Source: a virus
Lineage: Duplodnaviria; Caudoviricetes
IMG/VR virus record: IMGVR_UViG_3300031867_000005
Location: 96,001 to 160,000 of that record
DNA: 64,000 nucleotides
Strand: one strand, 5' to 3'
The notes below the pieces were generated by a model. That model saw nothing but the letters and a program-made list of their open reading frames with translations, searched no databases and was not told the origin of the DNA. This document shows, piece after piece, positions 37,505 to 37,631 of this stretch. The position numbers and the translations under genes were made by a program. Position 1 is the stretch's first letter. Every line of letters starts with the position of its first letter.

Positions 37505-37631
37505 TTCGGGATACTTTAAGTAGGCAGAAGGGCGGACTCGCTGTATGAAGGTTAGCTTTAAGATGAGGGCAGTTCTCATATACAGCTCCATAACTCCGCT
37601 AGTGCCAGATCGTGGCTGGCTCCCGAAACCA
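37505..37631 (+). tRNA. Split amber suppressor tRNA(CTA), Gln-like, with a 51-nt mini-tRNA insert (37540-37590)
   Basis: TTCGGGA/TCCCGAA-A-CCA; GCGGA-CTC[insert]TAAC-TCCGC gives loop CTCTAAC; spliced length 76 nt; U1-A72 and anticodon arm resemble tRNA-Gln. Confidence 0.85.

What the first reader, a model, noticed from the sequence alone, without database searches (positions are those of the whole stretch)
37505..37631. Amber suppressor tRNA hidden by a mini-tRNA insert inside its anticodon
Seen: a cloverleaf TTCGGGA...TCCCGAA-A-CCA whose anticodon arm reads GCGGA-CTC-[51 nt]-TAAC-TCCGC. The insert (37540-37590) is itself tRNA-shaped: GCTGTAT/ATACAGC 7-bp acceptor, ATGAG-GGCAGTT-CTCAT T-arm, then T-CCA. 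Removing it from the first acceptor base through CCA gives exactly 76 nt with loop CU-CUA-AC and U1-A72, both Gln-like. This matches the independent evidence that TAG is read as Gln. Inference: the suppressor is made as an inactive precursor from an early sigma-A promoter (37440) and works only after excision and ligation. A standard tRNA scan could miss it.
Basis: partly seen in the sequence, partly recalled or inferred. Interest (0 to 1): 0.97.

Follow-up and report, generated by a model that had tools for sequence, protein, structure and literature searches.

The report
Mini-tRNA intron splits phage amber suppressor
The only tRNA gene that could let this 179-kb phage read the stop codon TAG as glutamine is split in its anticodon by a 51-base insert shaped like the top half of a tRNA. 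So the phage's own genetic code appears to depend on a still unproven way of cutting and re-joining a tRNA.

Summary
Window 37505-37631 is a cloverleaf whose anticodon loop carries a 51-nt insert (37540-37590): a 7-bp stem, an inner hairpin, then T-CCA. Deleting it gives a 76-nt tRNA(CUA).

Standard ARAGORN and Rfam miss the gene. ARAGORN's intron mode mis-places the intron by one base and calls it Ser(CGA).

Two neighbouring tRNAs carry inserts of the same design: Ile-UAU (36817-36958) and Leu-UAA (39293-39425). The sister phage G001 has uninterrupted orthologues of both. The in-silico spliced genes align to them across the junction, so the rule "remove first stem base through CCA" holds for them. 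For the suppressor no orthologue was found, so CUA rests on this rule, on gene order and on need.

That need is strong. TAG is Gln (82 of 187 aligned TAGs face Q in G001) and makes up 11.6 per 1000 codons. No other CUA tRNA exists in the complete genome.

The likely route is host RNase P, a cut after CCA, then the phage Rnl1/Rnl2-like ligases.

Phage tRNA introns that may encode a tRNA are already in print (Lak megaphages, 2019; jumbo phages, 2026). This scan has noted the design in at least 24 other genomes. I class it as a new variant of a known but unexplained kind.

The parts
37440..37468 (+). Consensus sigma-70/sigma-A-type promoter (TTGACT, 17 nt, TATAAT, with TG extension) upstream of the suppressor precursor
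   Evidence: 11 of 12 matches. It is one of four near-identical promoters (36678, 36980, 37233, 37440). This is a consensus match only; expression was not tested.
37475..37497 (+). Leader hairpin AGAAAGTT...AACTTTCT between the promoter and the tRNA. The same element precedes the tRNA-Gln/Ile unit at about 36713-36735.
   Evidence: Read from the sequence. Function unknown.
37505..37539 (+). 5' exon of the suppressor tRNA: acceptor 5' strand, D-arm, anticodon stem 5' strand, and loop bases C32 U33 C34
37540..37590 (+). 51-nt insert shaped like a mini-tRNA. Stem 37540-37546 pairs with 37580-37586; inner hairpin 37563-37579 (ATGAG-GGCAGTT-CTCAT); discriminator T at 37587; CCA at 37588-37590.
   Evidence: The stem is perfect. 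The inner 'T-arm' is one of two competing folds.
37591..37631 (+). 3' exon: U35 A36 A37 C38, anticodon stem 3' strand, 4-nt variable loop, T-arm with the unusual loop ATCGTGG, acceptor 3' strand, A73, and an encoded CCA
36817..36958 (+). Companion tRNA-Ile(UAU) split by a 64-nt mini-tRNA (36853-36916, ending in A-CCA)
   Evidence: The insert alone scores 34.8 bits on Rfam's tRNA model. The in-silico spliced gene aligns in a single HSP across the junction to G001's intact Ile(tat): 47 nt, 93.6% identity, E 5e-14. ARAGORN calls the spliced form Ile(tat).
39293..39425 (+). Companion tRNA-Leu(UAA) split by a 48-nt insert (39329-39376: 6-bp stem, 6-bp inner stem, A-CCA)
   Evidence: ARAGORN -i. Rfam tRNA 38.9 bits. 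The spliced form aligns across the junction to G001 Leu(taa): 43 nt, 88%. ARAGORN calls it Leu(taa) with a long variable arm.
47772..48893 (+). Rnl1-like RNA ligase, TAG-free; candidate enzyme for sealing the exons
   Evidence: Pfam RNA_lig_T4_1, E 2.3e-13. PDB 5TT6 (T4 Rnl1), E 4e-7. Near full-length alignment to TIGR02308, but below its equivalog cut-off.
46094..47146 (+). Rnl2-like RNA ligase, TAG-free
   Evidence: Pfam RNA_ligase PF09414, E 1.5e-22. Near full-length alignment to TIGR02307, below its cut-off.
31770..32669 (+). Polynucleotide-kinase-like (AAA_33) plus HD phosphohydrolase protein, TAG-free; candidate end-healing enzyme
   Evidence: Pfam. The kinase domain resembles the Clostridium thermocellum Pnkp kinase (PDB 4GP6, E 1e-5) and TIGR04075.

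Best explanation
Window 37505-37631 is the phage's amber-suppressor tRNA gene (anticodon CUA, inserting Gln at TAG). It is interrupted between C34 and U35 by a 51-nt intervening sequence that mimics the acceptor/T-arm half of a tRNA and ends in NCCA. It belongs to a three-member set in this genome, together with Ile-UAU and Leu-UAA.

The precursor is transcribed from its own consensus promoter. It cannot decode until the insert is removed.

Proposed route (inferred, not shown):
1. Host RNase P treats the insert as a minihelix substrate and cuts at its first base. This leaves a 3'-OH on the 5' exon.
2. A second endonucleolytic cut falls directly after the insert's CCA. This could be an RNase Z-type activity that cuts after CCA, or another nuclease whose ends the phage kinase-HD protein would heal.
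3. The two halves, still held together by the outer acceptor and anticodon stems, are sealed in the anticodon loop by the phage Rnl1-like or Rnl2-like ligase.

Shown: the gene structure, the junction rule for the two companions, TAG=Gln, the absence of any other CUA tRNA, and the presence of the ligases and kinase.
Inferred: that splicing happens, the enzymes involved, the exact junction in the suppressor, and any timing role.
For: Structure:
- In-silico removal gives a 76-nt tRNA(cta).
- The precursor fold keeps the outer acceptor stem, anticodon stem and T-arm, with the insert helix stacked on the anticodon stem.

Junction rule:
- Inserts of the same design in Ile and Leu are absent from the orthologous genes of sister phage G001. 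The spliced forms align across the junction.
- Applied to the suppressor, the rule gives CUA. A one-base shift either way gives AUA or CGA. CGA would read TCG, which is only 1.6 per 1000 codons, and the body lacks the long variable arm that bacterial tRNA-Ser carries (the long arm is from my own knowledge). AUA would need an unmodified A34.

Need:
- TAG makes up 11.6 per 1000 codons in 107 conserved genes, more than CAG at 5.4.
- TAG faces Q in G001 at 82 of 187 informative sites, against a 2.7% background.
- No other CUA tRNA was found by ARAGORN (default, intron mode, or relaxed to 85%) or by Infernal at E<=1 in a genome that CheckV rates 100% complete.

Synteny: G001 has an intact Sup(cta) at the matching place in the order Gln, Ile(tat)..., Sup..., Gly, ORF, Met..., Leu(taa), Pro, Leu(tag).

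Processing logic:
- In all three inserts the boundaries coincide with the first base of a tRNA-like stem and with NCCA.
- Acceptor plus inner stem add up to 12 bp in each (7+5, 7+5, 6+6).
- CCA is encoded in 3 of 3 inserts, but in only 2-3 of 8 ordinary tRNA genes here and 6 of 27 in G001.
- The three stem sequences differ while their pairing is kept.

Sealing kit: Rnl1-like, Rnl2-like and kinase-HD genes, all TAG-free.
Against:
- No orthologue of the suppressor exons was found, with or without the insert, so its junction is not independently fixed.
- No known enzyme of a typical Gram-positive host cuts right after an encoded CCA. The phage has no RNase Z, CCA-adding enzyme, tRNA splicing endonuclease or RtcB.
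- The base before the proposed RNase P site is C or A, not the U that I recall bacterial RNase P preferring at -1 (from my own knowledge).
- The ligase/kinase kit is also present in G001, which has no inserts. It is therefore not specific to splicing and may serve tRNA repair against host nucleases.
- The suppressor has an odd T-loop (A54, U58), and its insert's T-arm is not the minimum-energy fold.
- None of the relatives examined carries such inserts, so covariation across genomes could not be tested.
- The published Lak introns carry an extra 5' hairpin before the inner tRNA. A two-cut tRNA-end model does not explain that.
Confidence: 0.6

Rival explanations
1. The insert is a true intron, but it is removed by a different route. 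An unidentified phage or host endoribonuclease recognises the stem-NCCA module and leaves 2',3'-cyclic phosphate and 5'-OH ends. The kinase-HD protein heals these ends and Rnl1/Rnl2 seal them. This would be the T4 Pnkp/Rnl1 repair chemistry used for splicing.
For: The phage encodes a kinase-HD healing protein besides two ligases. Healing would be unnecessary if both cuts left 3'-OH and 5'-P ends. No enzyme is known for the cut after CCA.
Against: No candidate nuclease was found. The G000-specific genes next to the tRNA cluster (40079-41430) look like a DNA restriction-modification pair. The exact match of the insert ends to tRNA ends, and the 12-bp stack, point to tRNA-end enzymes.
Confidence: 0.2
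2. The three genes are dead. A mobile mini-tRNA element landed in their anticodon loops and is never removed. TAG, AUA and UUA are then read by host tRNAs or by some undetected tRNA.
For: The inserts are absent from every relative examined, so they are recent. This genome has lost most of the 27 tRNAs of its sister: 8 canonical genes, or 10 with relaxed thresholds. That could mean the tRNA cluster is decaying.
Against: The exons keep perfect cloverleaf pairing. TAG is used more often than CAG in conserved genes, and a host using the standard code cannot read it. All three hits are in tRNAs for heavily used A/T-rich codons (TAG 11.6, ATA 23, TTA 37 per 1000). All three inserts keep a perfect or near-perfect stem plus NCCA although their sequences differ.
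Confidence: 0.08
3. The mini-tRNA is itself the product, for example a decoy or a partner RNA for the TROVE/Ro-like protein or for tRNA-targeting host defences. The outer tRNA would then be mainly a carrier that ensures its transcription and release. Exon ligation would be incidental or absent.
For: The Ile insert scores as a tRNA on Rfam's model. G001 has a free-standing stem/T-arm/ACCA element at L002:3811-3879. The cluster holds other tRNA mimics, a weak YrlA-like match (26.8 bits, below the gathering score of 69) and a DUF2828/TROVE-like gene.
Against: This does not explain how TAG is decoded. The three inserts share little sequence and have no homologues elsewhere, which is unlike a conserved functional RNA. 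This rival is compatible with the best explanation rather than exclusive of it.
Confidence: 0.07
4. The RNA is spliced at a junction shifted by one base, giving anticodon CGA (Ser, as ARAGORN's intron mode reports) or AUA rather than CUA.
For: ARAGORN -i reports Ser(cga) i(37,51). For Ile and Leu the junction is ambiguous by one base, because an A is repeated at both ends.
Against: The body has a 4-nt variable loop, not the long arm that bacterial tRNA-Ser carries (the long arm is from my own knowledge). TCG is the rarest Ser codon here (1.6 per 1000). Only the 'first stem base through CCA' reading gives sensible products in all three genes.
Confidence: 0.03

Closest known systems
'Enigmatic' tRNA introns of Lak megaphages (Devoto et al. 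2019, PMC6784885, Fig. 4 and Table S6), and the note that tRNA introns of jumbo phages using alternative codes 'could encode another tRNA' (PMC13037316, 2026)
   Same: Phage tRNA genes in stop-codon-recoded genomes are interrupted in the anticodon loop by short, non-self-splicing inserts. The inserts contain a tRNA-like acceptor/T-arm whose 3' strand lies at the 3' end of the intron. Variants with and without the intron exist. No mechanism is known.
   Different: Lak introns are 79-114 nt and are placed after position 37. They start with an extra hairpin and spacer before the inner tRNA, and they end in CA or CTA rather than NCCA. Here the inserts are 48-64 nt, start exactly at the inner stem's first base, end in NCCA, and sit inside the anticodon (34/35 or 35/36). 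In the text and Table S6 passages that I read, the Lak introns were in Tyr, Phe, Thr and Gly tRNAs.
T4 Pnkp/Rnl1 repair of tRNA-Lys cut in the anticodon loop by PrrC (reviewed in PMC3400036; the details here are from my own knowledge)
   Same: A phage Rnl1-family ligase, together with a polynucleotide kinase/phosphatase, would re-join a tRNA broken in its anticodon loop while the halves stay paired. This phage has homologues of both.
   Different: In T4 the break is damage inflicted by the host, and nothing is removed. Here a genome-encoded 51-nt segment would have to be excised first. The kit is also present in the insert-free sister phage.
tRNA 'punctuation' processing: RNase P and RNase Z release tRNAs or tRNA-like elements from longer transcripts (mitochondrial polycistrons, MALAT1-mascRNA). 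From my own knowledge; not tested here.
   Same: A tRNA-shaped module marks both cut sites through ordinary tRNA end-processing.
   Different: In those cases the flanks are not re-ligated. RNase Z normally cuts after the discriminator, not after CCA.
Group I introns in bacterial and phage tRNA anticodon loops (PMC3984707), and archaeal/eukaryal bulge-helix-bulge tRNA introns (PMC4090602)
   Same: An intervening sequence in the anticodon loop of a tRNA gene, absent from some orthologues.
   Different: 51 nt is far too short for a group I core, and no Rfam intron or ribozyme family matched. Both predicted cuts lie at the base of one helix, which is not bulge-helix-bulge geometry. No splicing endonuclease is encoded in the phage.
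Theta (HDV-like) ribozymes that trim the 3' trailers of suppressor tRNAs in recoded gut phages (PMC10879173)
   Same: Maturation of the phage suppressor tRNA is proposed as the control point of the TAG code switch.
   Different: Those are self-cleaving RNAs downstream of the tRNA. No HDV-like family matched here at E<=5; I did not run the paper's own theta descriptor. The feature here lies inside the anticodon.

Membership tests
tRNA (class I, amber suppressor) | Cloverleaf with a 7-bp acceptor stem, a D-arm with GG, a 5-bp anticodon stem, and a 7-nt loop with U33 and a purine at 37 | tested here: met
   Met only after in-silico removal of 37540-37590: ARAGORN calls a 76-nt tRNA(cta).
tRNA (class I, amber suppressor) | Canonical T-loop (T54-Psi55-C56-R57-A58), and recognition by general tRNA models | tested here: not met
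   The T-loop is ATCGTGG (A54, U58). Rfam RF00005 gives no match to the interrupted gene at E<=10. The spliced form could not be given to Infernal.
tRNA (class I, amber suppressor) | The tRNA actually decodes UAG as Gln | not testable with these tools
   Indirect evidence only: TAG=Gln by alignment, this is the sole CUA candidate, and U1-A72 is shared with the phage tRNA-Gln and G001's suppressor.
Phage tRNA introns with tRNA-like content (Lak-type 'enigmatic' introns) | An insert in the anticodon loop that is absent from orthologous genes, too short to self-splice | tested here: met
   Met for the Ile and Leu companions. For the suppressor no orthologue was found. The inserts are 48-64 nt.
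Phage tRNA introns with tRNA-like content (Lak-type 'enigmatic' introns) | The intron contains a tRNA-like acceptor/T-arm whose 3' strand ends the intron | tested here: met
   Ile insert: Rfam tRNA 34.8 bits. Suppressor insert: perfect 7-bp plus 5-bp stems and NCCA.
Phage tRNA introns with tRNA-like content (Lak-type 'enigmatic' introns) | Lak architecture: position after nt 37, and a 5' hairpin plus spacer before the inner tRNA | tested here: not met
   Here the insert starts at the inner stem's first base, at loop position 34/35 or 35/36, and ends in CCA.
Group I intron | A catalytic core of P3-P9 helices, usually more than 200 nt | tested here: not met
   The insert is 51 nt. No Rfam intron family matched.
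Archaeal/eukaryal tRNA intron | Bulge-helix-bulge motif and a splicing endonuclease (PF01974) | tested here: not met
   Both junctions lie at the base of one helix. PF01974 and RtcB are absent from the phage. The host genome is unknown.
T4-type tRNA healing and sealing system | An Rnl1-family ligase and a polynucleotide kinase/phosphatase encoded by the phage | tested here: met
   All matches are below NCBIfam equivalog cut-offs, so these are family members rather than orthologues.
T4-type tRNA healing and sealing system | The ligase acts on this tRNA's anticodon-loop break | not testable with these tools
   No biochemical or RNA data are available.

The most novel reading that the evidence does not exclude
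[quoted passage not shown] The cell's own tRNA end-processing enzymes (RNase P at its 5' end, a CCA-directed cut at its 3' end) excise it, and a phage Rnl1/Rnl2 ligase re-joins the anticodon loop. In this phage that pathway would be obligatory for the TAG-to-Gln code switch, so splicing capacity would set when TAG-rich structural genes can be translated.
Probability: 0.35. Interest if true: 0.9.

Novelty: new variant of a known kind. Interest (0 to 1): 0.72.

Why it matters
Surveys of recoded phages report genomes with obvious TAG reassignment but no detectable suppressor tRNA (PMC12386605, PMC13037316). A suppressor hidden by a mini-tRNA insert would explain at least some of these cases, and it shows that standard tRNA scans under-call them.

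Mechanistically, I found no report of any bacterial or phage tRNA intron other than self-splicing group I introns being shown to splice. An intron whose ends are defined by tRNA end-processing and sealed by an Rnl-type ligase would be a new splicing route. It would also give phage RNA ligases a housekeeping role beyond repair.

This locus is a clean test case:
- It holds three introns with different stems.
- Two have intron-less orthologues that fix the junctions.
- The read-out is simple (amber suppression).
- The candidate ligases are on the same genome.

Tried and rejected

Orthologues of the suppressor:
- IMG/VR pattern scans for the anticodon arm with a gap and for the T-arm found nothing.
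- An attempt at a two-gap pattern was rejected by the tool.
- Blastn of the spliced form against G001-G003 and the metagenome loci found nothing.

Other carriers of these inserts:
- IMG/VR scans for an interrupted Ile arm and for the shared inner hairpin plus NCCA gave 0 hits.
- The cultured-phage collection matched only ordinary tRNAs.
- Relatives found through the neighbouring ORF, in IMG/VR and in metagenomes, have no interrupted tRNAs.

Phage-encoded cutting enzymes:
- No Lactamase_B_2/RNase Z, CCA-adding enzyme, tRNA intron endonuclease or RtcB. No Glu/GlnRS either.
- The G000-specific genes at 40079-41430 were tested as candidate nucleases. They look like a PD-(D/E)XK restriction enzyme plus a SAM methyltransferase, so I rejected them.

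Other rejected ideas:
- Self-cleaving ribozyme or group I intron: no Rfam match at E<=5/10.
- Bulge-helix-bulge geometry: it does not fit the fold.
- A covariance model of the three inserts: not built, because MAFFT could not align the stems in register.
- Fold energies alone are weak evidence. The z-scores are -1.5 for the insert and -0.5 for the precursor.

Full report
**What is there.** The window is bases 96001-160000 of a 178,685-bp virus record that CheckV rates 100% complete. Its GC content is 31%.

At 37505-37631 the + strand reads as a cloverleaf:
- acceptor stem TTCGGGA/TCCCGAA, followed by A-CCA;
- D-arm CTTT-AAGTAGGCA-GAAG;
- anticodon stem GCGGA/TCCGC;
- T-arm GCCAG-ATCGTGG-CTGGC.

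The anticodon loop, however, holds 58 nt. The extra 51 nt (37540-37590) consist of a perfect 7-bp stem GCTGTAT/ATACAGC, 16 unpaired bases, ATGAG-GGCAGTT-CTCAT placed directly against the 3' strand of the stem, and then T-CCA.

Removing exactly these 51 nt leaves 76 nt, which ARAGORN calls tRNA(cta) with loop CU-CUA-AC. Default ARAGORN and Rfam do not see the gene. ARAGORN with introns allowed reports Ser(cga) with the intron shifted by one base.

**It is one of three.** Two more tRNA genes of the same cluster carry inserts of the same design.
- Ile, 36817-36958, carries a 64-nt insert at 36853-36916: CTTGTCA...ATGAG-GTCATTC-CTCAT-TGACAAG-A-CCA.
- Leu, 39293-39425, carries a 48-nt insert at 39329-39376: CATGGA...TAGCGG-GGCAGCA-CCACTA-TCCATG-A-CCA.

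Rfam's tRNA model scores the Ile insert by itself at 34.8 bits, above the gathering score of 29. The alignment shows an acceptor stem, a D-arm and a T-arm, with only a stub in place of the anticodon arm. It is literally a mini-tRNA.

In all three inserts the outer stem and the inner stem add up to 12 bp (7+5, 7+5, 6+6 with one mismatch). That is the length of the acceptor/T-arm stack of a tRNA. The three outer stems differ in sequence but all pair.

All three inserts end in NCCA. By contrast, only 2-3 of the 8 ordinary tRNA genes here, and 6 of 27 in the sister phage, encode CCA.

A perfect stem/hairpin/NCCA motif occurs 5 times in the genome, against 0.55 expected from shuffles.

**The junction rule is verified by a sister genome.** I searched for relatives through the ORF at 38263-38838. 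This found a 179,787-bp phage (G001, 78% amino-acid identity on that ORF) and more distant relatives. G001 has 27 tRNA genes and none is interrupted.

G001's Ile(tat) has the anticodon arm ACTCGCCTTATAAGCGAGAGATAG. This is the same arm as the window's exons on either side of the insert.
- The in-silico spliced Ile gene aligns to G001 in one segment across the junction (47 nt, 93.6%, E 5e-14).
- The spliced Leu gene does the same (43 nt, 88%).

So removing the insert "from the first stem base through CCA" reproduces the ancestral genes. An equivalent cut one base earlier on both sides gives the same product, because an A is repeated at both ends.

For the suppressor no orthologue exists in any collection I could search. 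G001 does have an intact Sup(cta) at the matching place in the gene order, but its sequence is unrelated. The CUA reading therefore rests on four things: the rule, synteny, the implausibility of the shifted products, and need. On the shifted products: CGA would sit on a body that lacks the long variable arm of bacterial tRNA-Ser and would read a codon used at 1.6 per 1000; AUA would carry an A34.

**The phage needs this tRNA.** Reading TAG as sense raises open-frame cover from 0.64 to 0.84 over the window, and from 0.35 to 0.99 over 8001-16000. One tail-region frame of 2037 aa holds 39 TAGs.

Across 87 aligned protein segments, TAG codons of this genome face Q in G001 at 82 of 187 informative positions. 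The background frequency of Q is 2.7%, and E and K come next. So TAG is Gln.

In 107 conserved genes TAG makes up 11.6 per 1000 codons, twice the share of CAG. ATA and TTA, the codons read by the other two split tRNAs, are at 23 and 37 per 1000.

No other tRNA with a CUA anticodon appears in the whole genome. I checked with ARAGORN (default, intron mode, and thresholds relaxed to 85%) and with Infernal at E<=1. A loop of 58 nt cannot decode, so if the gene works, the insert must be removed at the RNA level.

**How it most likely works.** The precursor has its own consensus promoter (TTGACT, 17 nt, TATAAT, TG-extended, at 37440-37468), followed by a leader hairpin. In the predicted fold the outer acceptor stem, anticodon stem and T-arm all form, and the insert helix stacks on the anticodon stem.

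The insert's ends are exactly the ends of a tRNA. As I recall it, a stem-hairpin with single-stranded NCCA is the classic minimal substrate of bacterial RNase P. A cut there would leave a 3'-OH on the 5' exon. A second cut directly after CCA would leave a 5'-phosphate on the 3' exon. These are the ends that Rnl1/Rnl2-type ligases join.

The phage encodes both kinds of ligase and a kinase-HD protein, and all three genes are free of TAG:
- the Rnl1-like protein matches T4 Rnl1 (PDB 5TT6, E 4e-7) and aligns nearly full-length to TIGR02308;
- the Rnl2-like protein aligns nearly full-length to TIGR02307;
- the kinase domain resembles bacterial Pnkp.

All of this is inference from anatomy.

The weak points are these:
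- The cut after CCA has no assigned enzyme. The phage has no RNase Z, CCA-adding enzyme, splicing endonuclease or RtcB.
- The base before the proposed RNase P site is C or A rather than U.
- The same ligase and kinase genes are present in insert-free G001. They are a pre-existing repair kit, not a dedicated splicing apparatus.
- The two genes that are specific to this genome and lie next to the cluster look like a DNA restriction-modification pair, not RNA enzymes.
- The idea that delayed splicing 'gates' the code switch has no support beyond the gene layout.

**What is known.** Devoto et al. (2019, PMC6784885) reported 'enigmatic' introns in Lak megaphage tRNAs, one of which 'itself may encode a tRNA'. 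Their Table S6 shows 79-114-nt introns placed after position 37. Each has a 5' hairpin and then an inner acceptor/T-arm whose 3' strand ends the intron, with a CA or CTA tail.

A 2026 survey states that tRNA introns of recoded jumbo phages 'could encode another tRNA', and that many recoded phages lack a detectable suppressor (PMC13037316). A similar gap is noted for Zeta crAss-like phages (PMC12386605).

Theta ribozymes show that maturation of phage suppressor tRNAs can be special (PMC10879173).

I found no paper that proposes or tests a mechanism for these introns.

This scan has already noted the compact stem-NCCA design on other DNA: 29 notes in at least 24 genomes, including one other split amber suppressor. 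None of those notes had RNA evidence.

**Verdict.** The reading as a hidden, intron-bearing amber suppressor for Gln is well supported. Splicing, its enzymes and any regulatory role remain hypotheses. It is a compact variant of a phenomenon that is in print but unexplained, and here it sits in the one tRNA on which the phage's altered genetic code depends.

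Noticed in passing
window 38865-38938: A tRNA-Met(CAT)-like gene with a G1.A72 mismatch, a D-loop without GG and the T-loop AGCGTTA. Default ARAGORN misses it. It is found at a 95% threshold and by Rfam at 35.3 bits.
   Followed up: partly
window 39069-39144: A tRNA-Glu(TTC)-like gene with the non-canonical T-loop AGCATCA. ARAGORN calls it only with relaxed thresholds. Together with the suppressor's ATCGTGG loop, this suggests that this phage tolerates A54-type T-loops.
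   Followed up: partly
window 38993-39049: Rfam's tRNA model matches positions 8-63 only (42.6 bits): a D-arm, a GTA anticodon arm and a T-arm with no acceptor stem. This is a tRNA-like core, not a chargeable tRNA.
   Followed up: no
window 39174-39271 and 41857-43479: A weak match to the bacterial Y-RNA-like family YrlA (26.8 bits, E 0.009, far below the gathering score of 69) lies about 2.6 kb upstream of a DUF2828/DUF7788 (TROVE/Ro-like) gene. That gene is conserved in the sister phage (54% identity).
   Followed up: partly
window 36678, 36980, 37233, 37440: Four near-identical cassettes of promoter (TTGACT-17-TATAAT) plus TATATAGAAAGTTTGAAA. Two drive tRNA units with a leader hairpin, and two drive small ORFs.
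   Followed up: partly
window 40079-41430: A gene pair absent from sister phage G001. One gene is a PD-(D/E)XK restriction-endonuclease-like protein (PvuII/DpnI-like by Atlas structure). The other is a SAM-dependent methyltransferase-like protein (phrog_5172). This is probably a phage-borne restriction-modification module.
   Followed up: partly
window 51593-53014: A BrxL-like Lon protease/ATPase (Pfam BrxL_ATPase, E 1e-103) encoded by the phage and absent from G001.
   Followed up: no
L002:3811-3879: The sister phage has a free-standing 69-nt element between tRNA-Lys and tRNA-Gln: GGAGATG...CATCTCC-A-CCA with a T-arm-like hairpin and no anticodon arm. It is a possible stand-alone relative of the mini-tRNA inserts. 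Rfam gives only a 12-bit tmRNA match.
   Followed up: partly
whole genome G000 versus G001: This genome has 8 canonical tRNA genes (13 counting the split and low-scoring ones). Its sister has 27, although gene order around the cluster is conserved.
   Followed up: partly
window 30692-31411 and 33678-34412: Two paralogous HTH/replication-initiator-like genes in the otherwise TAG-poor early region contain 3 and 5 TAG codons. Some early functions therefore also depend on the suppressor.
   Followed up: no
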